From sequence record OQ067374.1: a stretch of 64,000 bases of DNA; one strand, 5' to 3'. A program made the position numbers and the translations under genes. Positions 1,046-15,247 of this stretch are shown here, piece after piece (the stretch's first letter is position 1; every line of letters starts with the position of its first letter). The stretch comes from Escherichia phage a20. The notes under the pieces were generated by a model. It was not told the DNA's origin, did no database searches, and worked only from the letters and a program-made list of their open reading frames with translations.

Positions 1046-1594
1046 TTAACGAGCCCATTTGATGATTTCTGTAATCAAAACATTACGTTCGCTTGCATTA
1101 AATCCTATAACTTTGTTAGCACCATCATGATTAAGTAATTGATACGTTTGGATTTTGTTATGAATTGCAAACTCTTCAAAATGTGAAATGACTGTATTAA
1201 AACCGAATGAAGACAAAGTAATAAGGTCGTCTTCAAAACTTTCAGTCATTTCGTTACGTGTTAAAATAATTGTGAACACATCATGGTTTTGGCAAAGACG
1301 AACATAATCCTGTTCATAAACGTCAAGAACCGAGTCCGCATCTTGTCGAATACGTCCATAAACCCAGTTACTAATATATCCACGGTCTAACAGATAAATC
1401 TTAGTAGGGTCTAAATAATTCAACATCGTTTCGAAACAGCCAACTTCATTTCGAGACTTAACATCGAAACGTCCATCAACTGTTCGTTTAGGGAAATCAA
1501 TCTTTACATATCTTTCACTAATTTCCATTATGTCATTAATGAAAGTTGTTTTACCAGCATTATCCGGGCCATCTACTAAAATAATTTTAGCCAT
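1046..1594 (-). CDS. P-loop kinase (NMP-kinase-like fold)
   Basis: 182 aa; Walker A GPDNAGKTT near N-terminus and LLDRGY resembling the thymidylate-kinase DRY motif. Lies where T4 has beta-gt. Confidence 0.5.
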   Translation of the reverse strand: MAKIILVDGPDNAGKTTFINDIMEISERYVKIDFPKRTVDGRFDVKSRNEVGCFETMLNYLDPTKIYLLDRGYISNWVYGRIRQDADSVLDVYEQDYVRLCQNHDVFTIILTRNEMTESFEDDLITLSSFGFNTVISHFEEFAIHNKIQTYQLLNHDGANKVIGFNASERNVLITEIIKWAR

Positions 1595-1595
1595 T

Positions 1596-2495
1596 TTATT
1601 CCTCGATTACGACATCTTCATATTTAGGTATATTATACGGTGAAGAAATTAAAGCATTAAAGTAGATGAACTCACCAAGACCTGGATGAAATACTTCTTC
1701 AGGATTTTCGAAATATTGAATCTTCGGACGTCCTTTAAGAATTTGATAGTATTCAGTTTTAGTTGGTTTAAAAATTCGAATCAACGCTTCTTCAGGATAC
1801 TTATTTCTGTCGAAGCTATTATTTGGATCGGTTATATAAAGCGGTTGGCCTAATTGAATTGCACATTCAACCACTTGTTCAAAACGATAGCATGGGTCAC
1901 TAATTCGAAATGGATGAAAAATACCATCTAGATGAATAGGAGCCAAATCACCTACAAGACGCTGCATGATGGAAGGACGTATAACTTTCTGCGTTACGAT
2001 AATCTTATTACCATCTGCACCTGCGTTAACCAGCACTTCTTTTTGACGTTCATTCAACACAGTAGTTTGAAGTGAACGATTAACCGACAACATATCGGTT
2101 TTTAAGAATTCGTCAATATAAAAACGTGGTTTATTAGGGTCTGCAGTGATATTGAAATTGAATTCTACATCAAAAGCGCCGTCATATCCGGTGATATCTG
2201 TGATTAGAAAATCACAATCATAATAAGCAATTAATGAATCAACCACAAATTCATTTTCAGTCCAGAAATATTTACGAGTGTTATACGCGTTATCTTTATA
2301 CCATAATGGAACAAACTTAAATTCTGGGAAAAGACGTTCACATTCTTTAATATCAGATGCATTACGTGGATATGTAATCACATCACCTGGATTAGCACGG
2401 TGCAAATGAAGTTGGAAGTTGCCATCCTTAAGGATAGCATACTGCCCAGTTTCATAAGACCGCATACTCAAAATAGGTACGCGGAAAATAGCCAT
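1596..2495 (-). CDS. hypothetical protein at the beta-glucosyltransferase locus
   Basis: 299 aa, tightly packed between the P-loop kinase and the hydroxymethylase; no resemblance to T4 beta-gt or alpha-gt as I recall them; contains a DCD (DxD-like) tripeptide. Confidence 0.55.
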   Translation of the reverse strand: MAIFRVPILSMRSYETGQYAILKDGNFQLHLHRANPGDVITYPRNASDIKECERLFPEFKFVPLWYKDNAYNTRKYFWTENEFVVDSLIAYYDCDFLITDITGYDGAFDVEFNFNITADPNKPRFYIDEFLKTDMLSVNRSLQTTVLNERQKEVLVNAGADGNKIIVTQKVIRPSIMQRLVGDLAPIHLDGIFHPFRISDPCYRFEQVVECAIQLGQPLYITDPNNSFDRNKYPEEALIRIFKPTKTEYYQILKGRPKIQYFENPEEVFHPGLGEFIYFNALISSPYNIPKYEDVVIEE

Positions 2496-3211
2496 TAGTC
2501 AAGGAATCCTTTAACATAATCAAAATCACGTTCAAACACATGGGCACTTACCATGGTATGAGTATAATCACCAACTTCTACACCACATTCGTTAGCGATA
2601 TAATGAAGTAATTTTCCTTGGAGATAAAAATCCAACTGCATAACAACAGCACAGTTCTGAGAACGCATATGACAGTGGGTATAAAGCTTACCATCACGAA
2701 TATAATAAGTCACTGAGTCAGTACATGGATATTCAAGAGTTTCGTCCGAATCAAGCAAAGCCTGATCAGAACTTTCTAGAATTTGGAACACAACTCTTCG
2801 AGAGTTAGGCTTCTCTTTAAGTTCTTTTAGAAGAGCTGGTAATTGGGCCGCAATGCGAGGACCATAGAAAGTGTTGAAGTTCGCCGGCAAAACATCTGAT
2901 TTTGGTTTAGAAATAAATTTAGCGACATTAGGATATGCCTTAAACGCTTCTTCTGCGTTGGTACCACCAGAAATCATAAACTTCCAGAAGTCTTCGGCAT
3001 ATTCATAAGAGATGCGGTTAATACGTGGGTCAGTCATTTTGAATGATGATGGAGTGTCAACAACTACTGTCATAGACCCAATTTCATTACAACGTCCAAT
3101 ACGAGAATCAGTTACGAATTCCGGGTTTTCTAAAATTTCACGATTGACTGCTTTAAATGCGGTTTGAAAATCTGCGGCTTTGATATATTTCATTGTGTTA
3201 TGTTTTCCCAT
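2495..3211 (-). CDS. 42: deoxypyrimidylate hydroxymethylase (thymidylate synthase superfamily, gp42-like, divergent)
   Basis: 238 aa; SRRVVFQ ... YPCTDSVTYYIRDGKLYTHCHMRSQN resembles the catalytic-Cys region of T4 dCMP hydroxymethylase; syntenic with gene 42; GAGGT precedes the ATG. Confidence 0.65.
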   Translation of the reverse strand: MGKHNTMKYIKAADFQTAFKAVNREILENPEFVTDSRIGRCNEIGSMTVVVDTPSSFKMTDPRINRISYEYAEDFWKFMISGGTNAEEAFKAYPNVAKFISKPKSDVLPANFNTFYGPRIAAQLPALLKELKEKPNSRRVVFQILESSDQALLDSDETLEYPCTDSVTYYIRDGKLYTHCHMRSQNCAVVMQLDFYLQGKLLHYIANECGVEVGDYTHTMVSAHVFERDFDYVKGFLD

Positions 3212-3253
3212 GTTTACCTCAATACAATTTATTATATACTCAATTCATAAAGC

Positions 3254-3493
3254 TTATTTGAATTTCTTAGCGATGTTGATATAACGTAAAGCTTCAGCAT
3301 CGATACTTCCAAGAACACTATGAAGAAATGCATCAGCGTAGTATTCCAATTGAACAGGTTCTTTAATCACTTTAGCCGCTTTGGTTCCAAACAGGCCCAT
3401 AAGGGCCTTTTTAAGAATTTGTTCATTAGTGTTCAGTTTCATAGTCAAAATCTCTTCATTAAGTTGGTGGTTAAAAGTTTTTCTAGAAATCAT
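3254..3493 (-). CDS. hypothetical small protein
   Basis: 79 aa ORF in operon context; no motif recognised. Confidence 0.4.
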   Translation of the reverse strand: MISRKTFNHQLNEEILTMKLNTNEQILKKALMGLFGTKAAKVIKEPVQLEYYADAFLHSVLGSIDAEALRYINIAKKFK

Positions 3494-4650
3494 TCTGGGT
3501 ACCTCAAAGCGTCATCAGAGTTAGTTATATCAATAATAGATATAGAATTTTCTGATAACCCATTTTTAGATAACTGACGTTTATAATATCTTTCACAATA
3601 TGTACACGTCGTCCCGCAGATTTCATTAGCACAATCGAAATCTGGATGTCTGAACCACCTTTTTTCTAAAAAGCCATCTAACAAAGAGGTTTCAATATTT
3701 ACTGTATGTGAAAACTCAGTTTCGTTTTCAAGAGTGAAAATAGTCTCTAAAGGCTTCCACAGTTCTAACAAATTACCTTCAAACTTTTCAGAAGCGTATG
3801 CTTCAAGAACTTTCAAAATGTAGTCTGTGCTACCTGTACGTCCTGAAACTTTGAATTGAGTGATACCAATATCATTATAAAGTTTCAAATCTTGAGGACG
3901 AACAAAACGAGTTCTCAACCAGTTAAATGGGTCTGTATCACGAGCTTTAATGCAGTGTTGCATTGGATATCCGTTTAAGGATTTAGCATCATCAGCTGTA
4001 ACATCAGTACTATGGAAAATATAGCAAGAGTCACGATAGCTACAATGTGTTGTATACCCTTTACCAGCATTAGAACAGAACTCATTTACAAGAACTTCAA
4101 ATATTATATTGTTCTTATTGCAAAACTCTGCTGCACGCTTCAGGAAAGAAACTGAACGGTTCTTATGAATTCCACAGCAGACCTTTTTGATATTATATTG
4201 GTCATGCAAGTATTTGATTTGAGTTACAGCATCGACATGTAGAATTGTTGAAACTTCAATCTCAATGTCTTTATTGACTTCACGAACAATTTCCATAACA
4301 ACAGGGTTAGCGATAGTAATACGCCATACGCCTATTGACCAAAGATACTGAACATAATCCTGAATAGCTTTCTTCTTCCACTCAACTAGTTCTCTTTTTG
4401 AACCAGGATTTATCGTGTTGAGTGTATAGTTAAAGCAAATACCTAATTCGTTACAACGTTTAACGTAATCTTCTAACATCTTTTTGTCAACGTCAGGAAG
4501 CCTAAAATCAGGTCTGGCTGCTACAAAAGCCATTTCTCTTGTAGAGCCGTATACTTCGTTTATCAAGCTATTAGGATAAGTTTTATTGAGCTCTACGATT
4601 TTATCAAGAAGAGCTAAATCAAAATTCGTTCCAATTTTAAAAGTATTCAT
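3490..4650 (-). CDS. hypothetical protein with C-terminal CX4CX3CX2C cysteine cluster
   Basis: 386 aa; C-terminal CANEICGTTCTYC plus further scattered Cys; no family confidently assigned. Confidence 0.6.
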   Translation of the reverse strand: MNTFKIGTNFDLALLDKIVELNKTYPNSLINEVYGSTREMAFVAARPDFRLPDVDKKMLEDYVKRCNELGICFNYTLNTINPGSKRELVEWKKKAIQDYVQYLWSIGVWRITIANPVVMEIVREVNKDIEIEVSTILHVDAVTQIKYLHDQYNIKKVCCGIHKNRSVSFLKRAAEFCNKNNIIFEVLVNEFCSNAGKGYTTHCSYRDSCYIFHSTDVTADDAKSLNGYPMQHCIKARDTDPFNWLRTRFVRPQDLKLYNDIGITQFKVSGRTGSTDYILKVLEAYASEKFEGNLLELWKPLETIFTLENETEFSHTVNIETSLLDGFLEKRWFRHPDFDCANEICGTTCTYCERYYKRQLSKNGLSENSISIIDITNSDDALRYPE

Positions 4651-4707
4651 TTTTTTTGCATCTCACGTTAATTGATGCGATGGTTTTTGCAGGTCTTACT
4701 TAAATTA

Positions 4708-5097
4708 TTATAGATTCGGTTTATATGATTTAAATGTTTCGAATTCGCCTTTATTCATAAGAGCTTTGAATTCGTCAGGACGCATAGCTTTGTCGTCGAT
4801 AATCCAATCATATACTGGTTTATGTGTTAGCAAATTATGGTACTTCAAACCAATGTTTTCCAAGTTCTGAATCAGACTTGGGAGAATGTCAATTGCTATA
4901 CGTCCAGGACCTACTGACTTCATACCGCGAGCAGTGTAAAGCGTTATGGTATGCCCTGCATCATACAGAGCATTAATAGCAGTCACCATTTCGACGTCTG
5001 GTTTGAAGTTCACGTAATCACGATTGTTATTCCACTCTGTTATACAATCATCGACGTCCACGCAAAGATGTAATGGTTTCATAGCAATATCCTTCAA
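4708..5097 (-). CDS. HAD-superfamily phosphatase-like protein
   Basis: 129 aa; LCVDVDDCIT resembles HAD motif I (DxDx); start may be the second Met at 5082. Its 5' end overlaps the 3' end of the homing endonuclease gene. Confidence 0.5.
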   Translation of the reverse strand: MKDIAMKPLHLCVDVDDCITEWNNNRDYVNFKPDVEMVTAINALYDAGHTITLYTARGMKSVGPGRIAIDILPSLIQNLENIGLKYHNLLTHKPVYDWIIDDKAMRPDEFKALMNKGEFETFKSYKPNL

Positions 5098-5809
5098 TAG
5101 AATTTTTAATATTATCAGCTATACGCTTTCTAGGAATACCCGTTTTCTTTTCAGCTATCCTAAGAGATTCATAGTAATTTTCGTTTATTTTAACAAATTT
5201 TTGAGACTTGTGAGCATTTTTGCTTTCGTCCTGATATCGATAATTAAGATATTTAGGCGATTTTACTCTCTTTTGAATCGTGGCAGAAGATATACCCAAA
5301 TCTTTAGCCGCTTCCCGACAGGATTCATAATATTTGCCATCTACATTAATCTTTAGACCATGTAATGCAGGTTTACCATACCTCCTGTGCTTTTCTTTAC
5401 CCCTAGCTATAGATTCAGCTGACAAAGTTTTACCCCATCTTGGGTTTTTATCACCAACTAAACGTCCTTTATTTGCCTTAGAAATTTTATCCTTGGACCT
5501 TTGGGATAACCCGTCAGAACCGCCTTCGCCACCAGTTTTAAGATTGTAATAATTTGGGTCTTTAACTATGTCTAATGTTATTAGAGCCTTTTCAGCTATT
5601 TTTAATTCTTCTCTCGAGCTATGGTAGGAAATGATTTCTTTAAGAAAATTTTCCTTCCCGTATTTCCTTTCAGCCTTTTTATATAATTTACCAGAACCTT
5701 TATATAAATCTAAAGGCTCGGCTTCTTCAGCCGAGTGCATTCCTAAATAAACTTTACCGTTTATAAGATTAGTAGTTTTGTAGAGATAATGTATCAAATT
5801 CGTTCCCAT
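5048..5809 (-). CDS. GIY-YIG homing endonuclease (seg-like)
   Basis: 253 aa; N-terminal IHYLYKTTNLINGKVYLGMHS is a GIY-YIG module; basic C-terminal DNA-binding region. Confidence 0.8.
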   Translation of the reverse strand: MGTNLIHYLYKTTNLINGKVYLGMHSAEEAEPLDLYKGSGKLYKKAERKYGKENFLKEIISYHSSREELKIAEKALITLDIVKDPNYYNLKTGGEGGSDGLSQRSKDKISKANKGRLVGDKNPRWGKTLSAESIARGKEKHRRYGKPALHGLKINVDGKYYESCREAAKDLGISSATIQKRVKSPKYLNYRYQDESKNAHKSQKFVKINENYYESLRIAEKKTGIPRKRIADNIKNSIEGYCYETITSLRGRR

Positions 5810-7479
5810 TGATGAGTGATATCGCCACCGATTGGACGATAGGAAACACCAGTTTCTTTATCAGTTAGTACCCATTTACCAGGATTTTTTGTAATCAGAG
5901 TAGCCGTTACAGGTTCTGCTACGTCATAACTAATAGAGCCGTCTTGAAGTACACGGCCCATATTACGTAATTGCTTAGTCAGAAGTTCCATACCTTTATA
6001 ATATGCGGCTACCGCTTTAAGTGGATTATTCTTGAAATAACCACCTAATGCAATCCAGATAATTGCCACTGCCAAATGATGATACTCGTTAAACGAACTC
6101 ATCTTTCCATATTTGTAAACTAATGGATTGATGTTAATAGTCACATTACAAGTTGTTTCATCAATAGTAAACTGTCCCCAGGTCGGATTAGCATTGAATT
6201 CATCATAACCTGAAACAGCATAAAGCACTTTAGCTTCATCATACAATTTTGGCCCGTAAATCTTGGTTTCGCCAAAATATCCACGAGGGTCGATAAACTT
6301 AACTTCGCCGTTATCAGTAATCATAGTATTACTGAAGTTCGGGTCACCATGAATAACAGAGTACTGTCCCTGAGAACGGTTATGATAACGAATAAGATGT
6401 TCTAAAGCTTGTTTCAGCATTGGCTTCAGACGTCCAATCTTAGTGTAGTTCACATGTGTGATTTTACCAAATGAATCAATCAATGGTTGAATGCTTTCAC
6501 AACGATCAATAACTTTCGTATAGAATTCTTTAGTGAAATCACGACGAACAGTTTCAGGACTTACAAAATAAGTGTCTGTGCTGAATTTCAGTGCATCTAA
6601 AATTGTATCAACAATTTGTGGACGAGCAAGACTTGATTTGGATTTAATATATTCAAATGCCGGCTTACCTTTAATGCGTTCCATTTCAAAGTTATTTTCA
6701 TTAACAGAAACTAACTGAGGGACTGAATCTGATTTCACTTTCAAATACCACGAAATCTCATCTTTCTGAAGAGCTCGGCCCTGTTCGGTTAATGCGAATT
6801 TAGTTACAGTTTCTTCACCGATTTCAACTGCATTAAAACTACGATTAAGTTCACGAACTTCATGAGCTTTTTCAAGTTTAGGCATATCACCTAAATCAAT
6901 TAGATTCATAAGCTCTGATTTATTGAATGCGCCGCTGTAAAGGAATTCTACGAAATCACGTCCTTTGCAGTATTCATGAATTTCTTCATCAGTAGAACCC
7001 ATATAGAATTCCCAGTCTTTGAACTGATAAATTCCTACAACATTACCACCTGTTGAACCTACGTTAGTGATATTTTCACCGTCGAAATTATATCGACATT
7101 CGTCGCCCTTAACATAGATTGCGTTAACATTCCAAGACCATGAACCAAAATCGGGAATAATATCACACCAGTTAACAATTACATTATGGCCGTCTAAATC
7201 TTTGTGTAATTTAGCAAGAGCATAAGCAGATCCATACGCTTCATCAACTGTACGAATAGTCACATTGAACCCTTCTTGCTCACAATAAGCTCGAACAGTT
7301 TCAGCAAATTTTGAATGAACTACTACAATAATTTCATCTGCGCCTAGGTCAGAATAAATTGTATACAAATTGCTCAGAATAGTGTCTTGTTTATAGTTAA
7401 CAAGCACCTTAGGAATATGGTGAGTAATTGGATATAAACGAGTTGCCAGTCCAGCACCAAGAATAACAGCTTTTTTCAT
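5794..7479 (-). CDS. bifunctional sugar-1-phosphate nucleotidyltransferase / APH-like sugar kinase
   Basis: 561 aa; N-terminus MKKAVILGAGLATRLYPITHHIPKVLV is the classic G-x-G-T-R-x-x-P nucleotidyltransferase signature; C-terminal VIHGDPNFSNTMI ... FIDPRG is the HGD-x4-N catalytic loop of APH/choline-kinase-type kinases. Confidence 0.75.
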   Translation of the reverse strand: MKKAVILGAGLATRLYPITHHIPKVLVNYKQDTILSNLYTIYSDLGADEIIVVVHSKFAETVRAYCEQEGFNVTIRTVDEAYGSAYALAKLHKDLDGHNVIVNWCDIIPDFGSWSWNVNAIYVKGDECRYNFDGENITNVGSTGGNVVGIYQFKDWEFYMGSTDEEIHEYCKGRDFVEFLYSGAFNKSELMNLIDLGDMPKLEKAHEVRELNRSFNAVEIGEETVTKFALTEQGRALQKDEISWYLKVKSDSVPQLVSVNENNFEMERIKGKPAFEYIKSKSSLARPQIVDTILDALKFSTDTYFVSPETVRRDFTKEFYTKVIDRCESIQPLIDSFGKITHVNYTKIGRLKPMLKQALEHLIRYHNRSQGQYSVIHGDPNFSNTMITDNGEVKFIDPRGYFGETKIYGPKLYDEAKVLYAVSGYDEFNANPTWGQFTIDETTCNVTININPLVYKYGKMSSFNEYHHLAVAIIWIALGGYFKNNPLKAVAAYYKGMELLTKQLRNMGRVLQDGSISYDVAEPVTATLITKNPGKWVLTDKETGVSYRPIGGDITHQWERI

Positions 7480-7663
7480 GTTGTGGTCCTCATTGGTAAG
7501 TAGGAGTATTGTACACTATTCTAGTTAAAGCATTCATACTTTGCTTGTAGTCCAATCATAATCCATCCAATTACAAGTGTTGGAATCATTACCGGAGCCG
7601 TTAAGCTCCAGTAGATAGTCATGACAAGCATCAATAGTAAAAGTCCTATTGCTATTGCTTTCA

Positions 7664-8296
7664 TTATTCGCCTCGTAACATGGCACCTAGTGCACCACCA
7701 GGGTGGAACTTAAGGAAATCATTAGAGGTAAATCCACGTTCAGACGAAAGGTTGATAGCAAACGTATCGATAAGCGCTAACAACAATGTAGTGGACATAG
7801 TCGGAGCCAGAGAATTCTCATCAACCTCTACTGCGATGCCTGTACAGAAAGAGTAATCAAAAAGGGCTTCATTTTCTTGTGGAATGTCTGGGTTACAATG
7901 CAACAGAATCTGTTTGACGTTCGGACGAATCATTTTAAGATGCTTAGCCACGCCTATCATTTCTTCAGTTTTACCAGAACGACTAATATGAATCAACACA
8001 TCATTAGGCGCAATGAATCCTGCATCACCGTGAGAATAATGCCCAGTGTTCAAGTACATACTCGGGATACCTAGTGAAGCAAAAGTCTCGGAAGCTTTAG
8101 TTGCGATATTAGCATTCTTACCAACACCTGTAATAATTACTCGGCTTTCATAATTACTAAGTCCCGGGCGTCGAAGAGTTTCTAGAATAGCATTATAACG
8201 AGCAGGGTTTTGACTAATTACTTTGGCCATAGCGGCCAAAGAAGAAGCTTGTTTTATGATTGCGTCAATAGCGATAGTAATAGGAGTAGTTTTCAT
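7664..8296 (-). CDS. SIS-domain sugar-phosphate isomerase (KdsD/KpsF-type, arabinose-5-phosphate isomerase-like, no CBS domains)
   Basis: 210 aa; VIITGVGKNANIATKASETFASLGIPS...HGDAGFIAPNDVLIHISRSGKTEE and LAPTMSTT...FHPGGALG align closely with the SIS domain of E. coli KdsD as I recall it. Confidence 0.75.
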   Translation of the reverse strand: MKTTPITIAIDAIIKQASSLAAMAKVISQNPARYNAILETLRRPGLSNYESRVIITGVGKNANIATKASETFASLGIPSMYLNTGHYSHGDAGFIAPNDVLIHISRSGKTEEMIGVAKHLKMIRPNVKQILLHCNPDIPQENEALFDYSFCTGIAVEVDENSLAPTMSTTLLLALIDTFAINLSSERGFTSNDFLKFHPGGALGAMLRGE

Positions 8297-13832: not shown

Positions 13833-14249
13833 TTATGCAGCAACCATCTGCTTTTTAATAGCTTCAGGCAGTGATTCAATATATTCTGGAATTTTAGAAG
13901 CAACAATTTCGCCAGCTGCAATTAGTTGTTCGTCGGCATCAACACAATAGAAATCTTCCAGACGCTCAGAACCGTCTTTATCAAGAACGATTTTTCCGCC
14001 AGCTTCAATAGAATCTTTATAGTGCTTACGCATCAGATGAATCCACATATCAGATACATCGTTATCAATAAAACCATAAATCATAAAACGAGTTTCTTGT
14101 GGCAAAGATTGGAGTTTTTTAGCACTTGCGTCATCACAATGCAGGACCCATGCTTTACGAACACGATTATGGTTATGTGGGTTAGCGTCAGTACGGATAG
14201 AAGTAACTTTCAGATCAGCAGCAGTGAAACCTTTAGCAGTAGTAAACAT
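13833..14249 (-). CDS. rpbA: RNA polymerase binding protein RpbA-like
   Basis: 138 aa directly upstream of gene 45, as in T4. Confidence 0.65.
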   Translation of the reverse strand: MFTTAKGFTAADLKVTSIRTDANPHNHNRVRKAWVLHCDDASAKKLQSLPQETRFMIYGFIDNDVSDMWIHLMRKHYKDSIEAGGKIVLDKDGSERLEDFYCVDADEQLIAAGEIVASKIPEYIESLPEAIKKQMVAA

Positions 14250-14530: not shown

Positions 14531-15247
14531 ATGAATTATAACTCAATATACGAAAAGCTTATCACCAATGCTAAATCAAGAAGTTTAGATGGTTATACAG
14601 AACGTCATCACATTATACCACAATGTTTAGGTGGAAGTGATGATGCTTTAAACTTAGTAGACTTAACACCGGAAGAACATTATTTGGCACATCAACTGTT
14701 GGTAAAAATCCATCCAGATAATGCCTCTTTAATATATGCCGCTCGTATGATGACCATATCATCTCCTAAAGCAGATAGAAGCAAAAACAAATTATTTGGA
14801 TGGCTTCGACGTAAGAATCAAGAAGTTCAAAAGAATAAAGAATTCACTGCTGAAACCCGTAAGAAAATGTCCGAGTCTGCAAAAAATAAACCAAAGATTA
14901 CCTGTCCACATTGTGGTTTAACTGGAACTGAAGGAAACATGCGACGTTGGCATTTTGATAATTGTAAACAAGGTCCAACGCCTAAAATAGTAAAACTTGA
15001 TCAAGAAACAAAAGATAAAATAATTAAAACCATGGCCACGAAAATTTGGAAAGAAGATTCTTGCCCGTTTTGTGGCTTAACTACTAAGTTATCGGCGTTA
15101 AAGCCACATATAAAATTCTGTAAATCAAATCCTAACAGAAAGAAAAAAGAGGACAAGAAAATTAAATGTCCTCATTGCGATAAAATAGGGATCCCTGCTA
15201 ATATGCATCGTTGGCATTTCGATAATTGTAAATATAAGCCTCATTAA
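14531..15247 (+). CDS. HNH homing endonuclease (mob-like) with C-terminal zinc-finger repeats
   Basis: 238 aa; ERHHIIPQCLGGSDD...EEHYLAH HNH core; three C-terminal CPHCG...HFDNC units; transcribed opposite to flanking genes. Confidence 0.8.
   Translation: MNYNSIYEKLITNAKSRSLDGYTERHHIIPQCLGGSDDALNLVDLTPEEHYLAHQLLVKIHPDNASLIYAARMMTISSPKADRSKNKLFGWLRRKNQEVQKNKEFTAETRKKMSESAKNKPKITCPHCGLTGTEGNMRRWHFDNCKQGPTPKIVKLDQETKDKIIKTMATKIWKEDSCPFCGLTTKLSALKPHIKFCKSNPNRKKKEDKKIKCPHCDKIGIPANMHRWHFDNCKYKPH

What the first reader, a model, noticed from the sequence alone, without database searches (positions are those of the whole stretch)
7664..8296. CBS-less KdsD/KpsF-type SIS isomerase encoded by a phage
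Two long blocks align with the SIS domain of E. coli arabinose-5-phosphate isomerase as I recall it, but the protein stops after the SIS domain (210 aa, no CBS pair). This points to arabinose-5-phosphate as the entry metabolite rather than a hexose.
Basis: partly seen in the sequence, partly recalled or inferred. Interest (0 to 1): 0.7.

Follow-up and report, generated by a model that had tools for sequence, protein, structure and literature searches.

The report
Known phage arabinose-5-phosphate isomerase gene
The ORF is real and is very probably a short, single-domain arabinose-5-phosphate isomerase that feeds sugar into the arabinose decoration of this T4-like phage's DNA, but it is identical to phage RB69 gp55, which is already annotated and published with that proposed role.

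Summary
Window 7664..8296 (minus strand) is a 210-aa ORF with one SIS domain and no CBS pair. It is 36% identical to E. coli KdsD over 192 residues (E 1e-33). It does not resemble GmhA by sequence, by profile or by fold. The five positions that align with the KdsD active-site residues I recall (K59, H88, E111, E152, H193) are invariant in 21 phage homologues. The best solved relatives are the known CBS-less isomerases 3etn and 5uqi, and the KdsD SIS domain 2xhz.

The window is an RB69-like Mosigvirus, and the protein is 210/210 identical to RB69 gp55. RefSeq and PHROG 5670 already call it arabinose 5-phosphate isomerase. Thomas 2018 and Lee 2026 already propose it as the Ru5P-to-Ara5P step that feeds UDP-arabinofuranose for arabinosyl-5-hydroxycytosine DNA. 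No enzyme assay of the phage protein was found in the papers I could read.

Two additions. About 100 phage records carry the downstream kinase/uridylyltransferase but not this isomerase, so it is probably a dispensable flux booster. A separate lead concerns the neighbouring U32 Fe-S protein. In related phages it is paired with a chorismate mutase, so it may be an O2-independent cytosine hydroxylase.

The parts
7664..8296 (-). Single-domain (SIS-only) D-arabinose-5-phosphate isomerase, 210 aa. It is the RB69 gp55/ORF055c orthologue and the object of the finding.
   Evidence: ORF. SIS domain. KpsF/KdsD/GutQ are the best NCBIfam hits. 210/210 identical to RB69 NP_861745.1. PHROG 5670, E 9e-116. 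K60, H89, E112, E157 and H198 are invariant in the family. AF2 pLDDT 93.7, with top Foldseek hits 2xhz, 5uqi and 3etn.
5794..7479 (-). 561-aa bifunctional enzyme with an N-terminal sugar-1-phosphate nucleotidylyltransferase and a C-terminal APH/choline-kinase-like kinase (RB69 gp52:53, the AfhE analogue). It is the next two activating steps: Ara5P to Ara-1,5-P2, and Ara1P to UDP-Araf.
   Evidence: NTP_transferase at residues 3-99 plus weak kinase-family hits at 308-409. NCBIfam nucleotidylyltransferase hits. Role as described for HY126 AfhE in PMC13326640. The ORF is intact here but split in the RB69 record.
4708..5097 (-). Small HAD-family phosphatase (RB69 gp51, the AfhF analogue), proposed to convert Ara-1,5-P2 to Ara1P. 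The true start is probably the ATG at 5082, not the TTG at 5097.
   Evidence: TIGR01689 'capsule biosynthesis phosphatase', 1e-13. Role per PMC13326640. N-terminus differs from RB69 because of the adjacent insertion.
2495..3211 (-). Thymidylate-synthase homologue, the 5-hydroxy-dCMP synthase (RB69 gp48). It makes the base that receives the arabinose.
   Evidence: Thymidylat_synt, 2e-15. 236/238 identical to RB69 gp48, whose activity was shown experimentally in PMC13326640.
1596..2495 (-). 299-aa putative DNA arabinosyltransferase 1 (RB69 gp46:47).
   Evidence: No Pfam hit. phrog_3891, 7e-156. Assigned as a glycosyltransferase by structure in PMC13326640. Intact here, split in the RB69 record.
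1046..1594 (-). 182-aa thymidylate-kinase-like nucleotide kinase (RB69 gp45), probably phosphorylating 5hodCMP.
   Evidence: phrog_761 thymidylate kinase, 4e-45. RefSeq label. Table 1 of PMC13326640.
3490..4650 (-). 386-aa peptidase-U32-family protein (RB69 gp50), a member of the cluster with an unsettled role. See Noticed in passing.
   Evidence: Peptidase_U32, 7e-11. Ten invariant cysteines. Labelled 'sugar or heterocycle reductase' in PMC13326640.
8337..11048 (-). gp43 DNA polymerase, immediately upstream. It is separated from the isomerase start by 40 nt, with no terminator-like hairpin between them.
   Evidence: ORF. RefSeq annotation of the RB69 orthologue. Terminator scan.

Best explanation
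The gene encodes a single-domain D-arabinose-5-phosphate isomerase (EC 5.3.1.13) of the KdsD/GutQ/KpsF lineage that lacks the C-terminal CBS pair. [quoted passage not shown] The presumed chemistry is the usual SIS-domain aldose-ketose isomerisation through an enediol intermediate, using the conserved Lys/His/Glu/Glu/His set. Ara5P would then be phosphorylated at C1 by the kinase half of the adjacent 561-aa enzyme. The small HAD phosphatase would remove the C5 phosphate. The nucleotidyltransferase half of the 561-aa enzyme would make UDP-arabinofuranose. Phage glycosyltransferases then put the arabinose on 5-hydroxycytosine in phage DNA, which protects the DNA from host nucleases. Shown here: the ORF, its domain content, its family placement, the invariance of the aligned catalytic positions, a confident isomerase-like fold, and the conserved gene neighbourhood. 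Shown by others: arabinosyl-5hoC in RB69 DNA, the 5hodCMP synthase activity of gp48, and (for phage HY126, as reported second-hand) the kinase, phosphatase and uridylyltransferase steps. Inferred: that this protein catalyses Ru5P to Ara5P in vivo, and that its benefit is extra flux on top of host KdsD/GutQ.
For: Family placement: NCBIfam KpsF/GutQ 2e-32, KdsD 7e-31 and GutQ 9e-23, with all other families at 1e-6 or weaker, and the same for all 21 family members. hhalign against KdsD gives 99.8% probability, E 6.6e-28. BLASTP against KdsD gives 36% identity over 192 aa, E 1e-33. PDB sequence hits are 3etn 2.7e-25, 5uqi 4e-23 and 2xhz 3.5e-19. The AF2 model has pLDDT 93.7, and the top Foldseek hits are 2xhz, 5uqi (c3406 with A5P) and 3etn. 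K60, H89, E112, E157 and H198 align with KdsD K59, H88, E111, E152 and H193 and are invariant across homologues down to 42% identity. Identity with RB69 gp55. PHROG 5670. Published pathway proposals. The gene order polymerase-isomerase-AfhE-like-HAD...TS-like-glycosyltransferase is conserved in Serratia LC53 and Klebsiella KLB31. As a Rosetta-stone argument, distant homologues of the 561-aa enzyme occur as single ~920-950-aa polypeptides with the order HAD-SIS-nucleotidyltransferase-kinase. The SIS part of one of them is 33% identical to this protein (E 7e-29).
Against: No enzymatic or genetic test of this protein or any phage orthologue was found in the papers I could read, and two key papers were not held. 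The score against the curated KpsF/GutQ model (112.9 bits) is below its trusted cutoff (203.7). That is expected, because only the SIS half of the model is matched (positions 2-153 of 268). The host already has two such isomerases (KdsD and GutQ). About 100 phage records carry the AfhE-like gene without this one: 368 against 269 records, and the Dhakavirus QL01 and Klebsiella Marfa clusters lack it. The step is therefore not indispensable to the pathway.
Confidence: 0.88

Rival explanations
1. It is an arabinose-5-phosphate isomerase, but it serves host-envelope chemistry (Kdo, LPS or capsule, as KpsF does) rather than DNA modification.
For: The closest characterised relatives work in Kdo or capsule pathways. 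The neighbouring HAD protein matches a 'capsule biosynthesis phosphatase' model.
Against: No kdsA, kdsB or kdsC-like genes lie in the cluster. The gene sits between the DNA polymerase gene and the 5hodCMP synthase and arabinosyltransferase genes. Its close homologues (60% identity or more) occur in T4-like phages that also carry the AfhE-like and TS-like genes. RB69 DNA contains arabinose.
Confidence: 0.05
2. It is a SIS isomerase with a different substrate, such as GmhA-type sedoheptulose-7-P isomerase, 6-phospho-3-hexuloisomerase or another pentulose phosphate isomerase.
For: All SIS domains share a fold. There are weak hits to HxlB (E 6e-3) and AgaS (2.5e-4). Substrate specificity cannot be read with certainty from sequence. 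RefSeq and PHROGs label the neighbouring HAD gene 'phosphoheptose isomerase'.
Against: No GmhA signal at any level. There is a gap of about 25 orders of magnitude in E-value between the API models and every other SIS family. The aligned API catalytic positions are invariant. The 'phosphoheptose isomerase' label is a mis-annotation of a HAD phosphatase. The sugar on the DNA is arabinose.
Confidence: 0.04
3. It is a non-catalytic sugar-phosphate-binding SIS protein, acting as a sensor or regulator like the SIS modules of RpiR, MurR or HexR.
For: Weak hits to RpiR/HexR/AlsR-family SIS modules (1e-6 to 3e-3). Several regulator SIS domains appear in the fold search below the isomerases.
Against: There is no HTH or other output domain. 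The aligned catalytic positions are strictly invariant. API models score far better. The SIS domain is fused to enzymes, not to DNA-binding domains, in distant relatives.
Confidence: 0.02

Closest known systems
RB69 gp55 / ORF055c (NP_861745.1); PHROG 5670 'arabinose 5-phosphate isomerase'
   Same: The protein is 210/210 identical. It has the same position directly after gene 43. It matches the PHROG profile over its full length, E 9e-116. The proposed function is the same in Thomas 2018 and Lee et al. 2026.
   Different: The RB69 protein has one extra C-terminal Gln (TAA here against CAA-TGA there). This phage has a GIY-YIG homing-endonuclease insertion two genes downstream that RB69 lacks.
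Single-domain (CBS-less) arabinose-5-phosphate isomerases: E. coli CFT073 c3406 (PDB 5uqi/5vhu) and the Bacteroides fragilis enzyme (PDB 3etn)
   Same: About 200 aa with a SIS domain only. They are the best PDB sequence matches (2.7e-25 and 4e-23) and are among the top fold matches (TM 0.79-0.84). The HPGG(A/S)LG C-terminal segment is retained.
   Different: Only about 30% identity. Those enzymes work in cellular Kdo, capsule or genomic-island contexts, not DNA modification. Feedback inhibition of the Bacteroides enzyme by CMP-Kdo is my recollection of the literature, and it is untested for the phage protein.
E. coli KdsD / GutQ / KpsF (TIGR00393, SIS plus tandem CBS)
   Same: 36% identity over the whole SIS domain. 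The positions aligning with KdsD K59, H88, E111, E152 and H193 are identical. The reaction is expected to be the same.
   Different: The ~120-aa CBS pair is absent. The score is therefore below the full-length curated cutoff. The phage clade is a distinct branch: only 14 50%-identity representatives reach E 1e-30, followed by a drop from 133 to 118 bits into a continuum of roughly 32-45% identical proteins that mixes short (~190-240 aa) and long (~310-345 aa) forms.
GmhA (sedoheptulose-7-phosphate isomerase)
   Same: The SIS superfamily fold and a similar size (192 aa).
   Different: No significant sequence or profile similarity. The structural match is poor: TM 0.53, rmsd ~6 A, rank 46 or lower.

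Membership tests
KpsF/GutQ/KdsD arabinose-5-phosphate isomerases (TIGR00393; EC 5.3.1.13) | SIS domain that scores best against the API models among all SIS subfamilies | tested here: met
   kpsF 2e-32, KdsD 7e-31 and GutQ 9e-23, against 1e-6 or weaker for all others. The same holds for 21/21 family members. hhalign against KdsD gives 99.8%.
KpsF/GutQ/KdsD arabinose-5-phosphate isomerases (TIGR00393; EC 5.3.1.13) | Score at or above the curated whole-protein cutoff of the model | tested here: not met
   112.9 bits against a cutoff of 203.7. Only model positions 2-153 of 268 are matched, because the CBS half is missing.
KpsF/GutQ/KdsD arabinose-5-phosphate isomerases (TIGR00393; EC 5.3.1.13) | C-terminal tandem CBS pair (the canonical two-domain architecture) | tested here: not met
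   The protein ends at the residue aligned with KdsD 202-207. No CBS-like sequence occurs anywhere in the window. This feature defines the canonical architecture, not the activity.
KpsF/GutQ/KdsD arabinose-5-phosphate isomerases (TIGR00393; EC 5.3.1.13) | Active-site residues equivalent to KdsD K59, H88, E111, E152 and H193 (the residue list is my recollection of the literature; the 2xhz chain does carry Ala where the genomic KdsD has K59) | tested here: met
   K60, H89, E112, E157 and H198 align with them and are invariant in 21 homologues of 42-98% identity.
KpsF/GutQ/KdsD arabinose-5-phosphate isomerases (TIGR00393; EC 5.3.1.13) | Catalysis of Ru5P <-> Ara5P; tetramer with inter-subunit active sites | not testable with these tools
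   This needs an enzyme assay, complementation and an oligomer structure. No such data for the phage protein were found.
Single-domain (CBS-less) APIs (c3406, B. fragilis API) | About 200-aa protein made of the API-type SIS domain alone, closest in sequence and fold to 5uqi and 3etn | tested here: met
   210 aa with a single Pfam domain. 3etn and 5uqi are the top two PDB sequence hits. The fold-search top five are 2xhz, 5uqi and 3etn.
GmhA sedoheptulose-7-phosphate isomerase | Significant match to GmhA sequences, profiles or structures | tested here: not met
   No NCBIfam GmhA hit at E <= 0.1. BLASTP E 6.3. hhalign probability 1.4%. No GmhA chain in the PDB phmmer search up to E 10. Foldseek TM 0.53 at rank 46 or lower.
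Phage arabinosyl-5-hydroxycytosine DNA-modification cluster (RB69/DLP3/HY126 type) | Co-located TS-like 5hodCMP synthase, AfhE-like kinase/uridylyltransferase, AfhF-like HAD phosphatase, nucleotide kinase and glycosyltransferase | tested here: met
   All are present at 1046-7479 on the same strand. The TS homologue is 99% identical to the experimentally characterised RB69 gp48. Gene roles follow PMC13326640.

The most novel reading that the evidence does not exclude
The phage isomerase is not a simple duplicate of host KdsD/GutQ. On this reading it is a deregulated flux valve: CBS-less, about 60% diverged from KdsD, and possibly insensitive to CMP-Kdo feedback. It would be needed only when arabinose demand is very high, as with di- or tri-arabosylated genomes such as RB69 and DLP3. 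That would explain why about 100 related phage genomes keep the rest of the pathway but lack this gene. A rough estimate from my own figures, not a tool result: ~62,000 cytosines per genome, times 2 sugars, times a burst of 100-200, gives more than 10^7 Ara5P per cell. That is several times the host's normal Kdo demand.
Probability: 0.25. Interest if true: 0.35.

Novelty: already known. Interest (0 to 1): 0.1.

Why it matters
On its own this matters little. The gene, its family assignment and its proposed role in making UDP-arabinose for DNA hypermodification are already in RefSeq, PHROGs and two papers (2018 and 2026). The remaining open point is modest: direct biochemical proof, and whether the phage copy is needed at all given the host KdsD/GutQ. 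The neighbouring U32 gene, paired with a chorismate mutase in related phages, is the more promising thread from this locus.

Tried and rejected
1. GmhA or another SIS subfamily was rejected at the sequence, profile and fold levels.

2. I looked for a CBS pair encoded elsewhere, either split off or frameshifted. Nothing turned up in the window, and the downstream sequence is a 47-aa hydrophobic ORF followed by the nucleotidyltransferase gene.

3. The promoter and terminator scan was uninformative. It found 35 promoter-like sites against 38.4 expected and 6 terminator-like sites against 5.4 expected. It was used only to note that no hairpin lies between gene 43 and this gene.

4. I tried to read the primary papers on the HY126 Afh pathway (He 2026), the Mahler 2025 paper, and the structural papers on KdsD, c3406 and the B. 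fragilis enzyme. None is held. A full-text search for the KdsD catalytic-residue names returned only unrelated papers. The catalytic-residue list and the CMP-Kdo feedback therefore rest on my own recollection.

5. I asked whether the closest cellular relatives are single-domain or two-domain. The six best non-phage-clade representatives are short (193-243 aa), but their scores (110-118 bits) barely exceed those of the two-domain proteins (~109 bits). The origin of the phage clade is left open. One of these short relatives sits in a catabolic-looking cluster (RpiR regulator, GH172, PfkB kinase).

6. I tested whether the 79-aa ORF beside the U32 gene in this window is a chorismate mutase. It is not detectably one, although the gene in the same position in other genera is.

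Full report
**Observation.** The coordinates 7664..8296 delimit a real ORF, but on the minus strand. It has an ATG start and encodes 210 aa; the plus-strand frame is full of stops. Pfam finds a single SIS domain (residues 51-181, E 1e-10) and nothing else. I took the E. coli K-12 proteins from the genome record rather than from memory. BLASTP against KdsD gives 36% identity over 192 residues (E 1e-33) and stops at KdsD residue 202, just before the CBS pair. In the multiple alignment KdsD and GutQ continue for about 120 residues beyond the phage protein's end. No CBS-like sequence exists anywhere in the 64-kb window (best tblastn E 0.27). The DNA directly downstream encodes a 47-aa hydrophobic peptide whose ATG overlaps the stop codon, and then the next enzyme gene.

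**Which SIS subfamily.**
- NCBIfam ranks KpsF/GutQ (2e-32), KdsD (7e-31) and GutQ (9e-23) first. Everything else is at 1e-6 or weaker, and no GmhA model appears at E <= 0.1.
- The 112.9-bit score is below the curated cutoff of 203.7 only because the CBS half of the model is unmatched (model positions 2-153 of 268).
- A PDB sequence search returns 3etn (B. fragilis single-domain enzyme, 2.7e-25), 5uqi (4e-23), 2xhz (KdsD SIS domain, 3.5e-19) and 3fxa. No GmhA chain appears even at E 10.
- An alignment of 21 homologues (42-98% identity) compared by hhalign gives 99.8% probability against KdsD and 1.4% against GmhA.
- All 21 members individually hit the API models and none hits GmhA.
- An AlphaFold2 model built on that alignment is confident (pLDDT 93.7, pTM 0.90). 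Its best Foldseek matches in the PDB are 2xhz, 5uqi ('E. coli CFT073 c3406 in complex with A5P') and 3etn, with TM 0.74-0.84. GmhA structures first appear at rank 46 with TM 0.53.

**Active site.** From my recollection of the KdsD literature, the active-site residues are K59, H88, E111, E152 and H193. The papers themselves were not held. One indirect check is available: the 2xhz 'probing the active site' chain carries Ala where the genomic KdsD has K59. These five positions align with K60, H89, E112, E157 and H198 of the phage protein. All five are invariant across the 21-member family. The serine/threonine-rich loops (SRSGKTEE, LAPTxSTT) and the HPGGxLG tail are also conserved.

**What the window is, and what is already known.** The region is 98.7% identical to Escherichia phage NRG-P0074 and 97.9% to RB69, a Mosigvirus. 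The protein is 210/210 identical to RB69 gp55 (NP_861745.1), which has one extra C-terminal residue. RefSeq names it 'arabinose 5-phosphate isomerase'. PHROG 5670 carries the same name and matches at 9e-116 over its full length. Dozens of GenBank phage records use that label.

**Mechanism and context in this window.** All the pathway genes lie on the minus strand downstream of gene 43:
- the isomerase (7664..8296);
- the 47-aa peptide;
- the intact 561-aa nucleotidyltransferase/kinase (5794..7479);
- a GIY-YIG homing endonuclease (5048..5809);
- the HAD phosphatase (4708..5097);
- the U32 protein (3490..4650);
- a 79-aa ORF;
- the TS-like 5hodCMP synthase (2495..3211, 99% identical to RB69 gp48);
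- a 299-aa glycosyltransferase (1596..2495);
- a thymidylate-kinase-like protein (1046..1594).

Only 40 nt separate the gene 43 stop from the isomerase start, and no terminator-like hairpin lies between them. This fits co-transcription with the replication genes, which is an inference. The most likely mechanism is therefore Ru5P to Ara5P (this protein), then Ara-1,5-P2, then Ara1P, then UDP-Araf, then transfer to 5hoC in DNA.

**Independent support from gene fusions.** Distant homologues of the 561-aa enzyme occur as single polypeptides of ~890-955 aa. Several of these contain, in order, HAD, SIS, nucleotidyltransferase and kinase. The SIS part of one (P0204) is 33% identical to the phage isomerase (E 7e-29) and keeps the GxGK, HGD, SGxTEE and HPGG motifs. 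This is a Rosetta-stone argument that these activities work together. Thomas 2018 had noted a related Butyrivibrio fusion.

**Distribution, and a point not made in the papers I read.** A tblastn search of 50,697 phage records finds the isomerase in 269 of them. All Escherichia, Shigella and 'Enterobacteria' hits are the >=80%-identity Mosigvirus type; the rest are Acinetobacter (57), Serratia, Enterobacter, Yersinia, Erwinia, Kosakonia and others. The AfhE-like enzyme is in 368 records and the TS-like synthase in 373.

The roughly 100 extra records include Klebsiella phages (25 for the AfhE-like enzyme, 26 for the TS-like synthase) and about 40 Escherichia phages of the Dhakavirus type, judging from QL01, VR5 and AnYang. 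I checked two clusters directly. Dhakavirus QL01 and Klebsiella phage Marfa have the AfhE-like gene, HAD, kinase, TS-like gene and glycosyltransferase next to gene 43, but no SIS gene. These phages presumably draw Ara5P from host KdsD/GutQ. The phage isomerase therefore looks like a dispensable flux booster rather than an obligatory step.

**Relation to cellular enzymes.** An exhaustive search of 1.84 billion representatives gives 14 proteins at E <= 1e-30 (the phage clade). Scores then drop from 133 to 118 bits into a continuum of roughly 32-45% identical proteins. The first six of these are short (193-243 aa) and are followed by a mix of short and ~310-345-aa forms. The data do not decide whether the phage clade descends from single-domain enzymes or lost the CBS pair.

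**Verdict.** Interest is low. The residual uncertainty is biochemical only.

**A separate lead: the U32 gene.** The 386-aa U32-family protein (3490..4650, RB69 gp50) has no settled role. Lee 2026 lists it as 'sugar or heterocycle reductase'.
- It is unusually conserved: 76-87% identity across genera, where the isomerase is 63-75%.
- It has ten invariant cysteines: C158, C177, C192-x10-C203-x5-C209-x23-C233, and a C-terminal C340-x4-C345-x3-C349-x2-C352.
- Homologues of 50-55% identity sit among deoxynucleotide-metabolism genes in unrelated contigs. Neighbours include dCMP deaminase, thymidylate kinase and UDG in one, and NT5C, dNK and nucleoside deoxyribosyltransferase in another.
- U32-family proteins RlhA, TrhP and UbiU/V are Fe-S, prephenate-dependent, O2-independent hydroxylases. 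RlhA makes 5-hydroxycytidine in 23S rRNA (PMC5727448; 10.1101/587956; PMC6599085 and PMC10990095 by abstract only).
- Of the four E. coli paralogues, RlhA is the best profile match, though weakly: 65% probability, E 5.9e-5, with phage C203 and C209 on RlhA's CX6C pair. The other three score 7% or less.
- In 47 phage records, all T4-like phages of Enterobacterales, a bona fide AroQ chorismate mutase (Pfam CM_2, 1e-9 to 2e-11) is present. Chorismate mutase is the enzyme that makes prephenate. In the two clusters inspected it lies exactly between the U32 gene and the 5hodCMP synthase gene, and the listed records' annotations place it beside the thymidylate-synthase homologue and often the peptidase.
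- The U32 gene is found in 221 phage records. None is visibly from Acinetobacter, although 57 Acinetobacter phage records carry the rest of the pathway.

Together these points suggest an O2-independent, prephenate-dependent route to 5-hydroxycytosine for phages of facultative anaerobes, running alongside the O2- and flavin-dependent gp48. Three caveats apply. In this window and in RB69 the syntenic 79-aa ORF is not a detectable chorismate mutase. The Dhakavirus QL01 cluster I inspected lacks the U32 gene. The two papers I could not read may already address this.

Noticed in passing
window 3490-4650 (-), with 3254-3493 (-); L014 4492-6002; L015 2483-3894; L011; L012: The U32-family protein (RB69 gp50, role unsettled) has 10 invariant Cys. 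Its homologues lie among deoxynucleotide genes in unrelated contigs. Its best E. coli paralogue match is RlhA, the 23S rRNA 5-hydroxycytidine synthase. A true AroQ chorismate mutase (the prephenate maker) occurs in 47 related phage records; in the two clusters inspected it sits between the U32 gene and the 5hodCMP synthase gene. The U32 gene is not seen in any of the 57 Acinetobacter phage records that carry the rest of the pathway. Hypothesis: an O2-independent, prephenate-dependent cytosine C5 hydroxylase that backs up the O2/flavin enzyme. In this window the syntenic 79-aa ORF is not a recognisable chorismate mutase.
   Followed up: partly
L008 (Escherichia phage QL01) and L009 (Klebsiella phage Marfa); phage-wide counts: About 100 phage records have the AfhE-like kinase/uridylyltransferase and the TS-like 5hodCMP synthase but no SIS isomerase (368 and 373 records against 269). 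The QL01 and Marfa clusters were checked directly and lack it. This implies reliance on host KdsD/GutQ.
   Followed up: partly
L005 6001-8781 (P0204); also P0208, P0209, P0211, P0212, P0216, P0230: Fusion proteins of ~910-955 aa have the domain order HAD-SIS-nucleotidyltransferase-kinase. P0204 lies on a 103-kb contig of a eukaryote assembly, near MutS+HNH, RNA polymerase Rpb2 and a Ser/Thr kinase, which looks like giant-virus DNA. P0211 comes from a eukaryote transcriptome. This suggests a one-polypeptide pentose-nucleotide pathway outside phages.
   Followed up: partly
window 7521-7664 (-): A 47-aa strongly hydrophobic ORF (MKAIAIGLLLLMLVMTIYW...) has its ATG overlapping the isomerase stop codon (TAATG). 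It matches phrog_3610 over its full length (8e-27). It is conserved in RB69, where only a 36-aa version is annotated, and an ORF of the same size and position is annotated in LC53 and KLB31 as a transmembrane protein. Its function is unknown.
   Followed up: partly
window 5048-5809 (-); inserted segment 5074-5797: A GIY-YIG / I-TevI-like homing endonuclease gene is inserted between the 561-aa enzyme gene and the HAD phosphatase gene. The insertion replaces 25 bp of RB69 sequence and rewrites the first ~12 residues of the HAD protein. It is also present in phages NRG-P0074, BEU50 and JM17.
   Followed up: partly
window 4708-5097 (-): The HAD phosphatase is labelled 'phosphoheptose isomerase' in RefSeq (RB69p051) and in PHROG 1238. 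It has no isomerase signature and matches a capsule-biosynthesis phosphatase model (TIGR01689). This is a propagated mis-annotation that could mislead a GmhA-based reading of the locus.
   Followed up: yes
window 5794-7479 (-) and 1596-2495 (-): The 561-aa and 299-aa ORFs are intact here, whereas the RB69 record splits each into two (ORF052c/053c and ORF046c/047c). This supports the published statement that the RB69 splits are sequencing errors.
   Followed up: yes
window 14531-15247 (+): A 238-aa ORF lies on the opposite strand, between rpbA (13833..14249) and the gp46-like gene. It has an N-terminal HNH-like 'HHIIPQCLGG' motif and repeated CxxC zinc-ribbon units. Pfam gives only weak zinc-ribbon hits. 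It is probably another free-standing homing endonuclease.
   Followed up: partly
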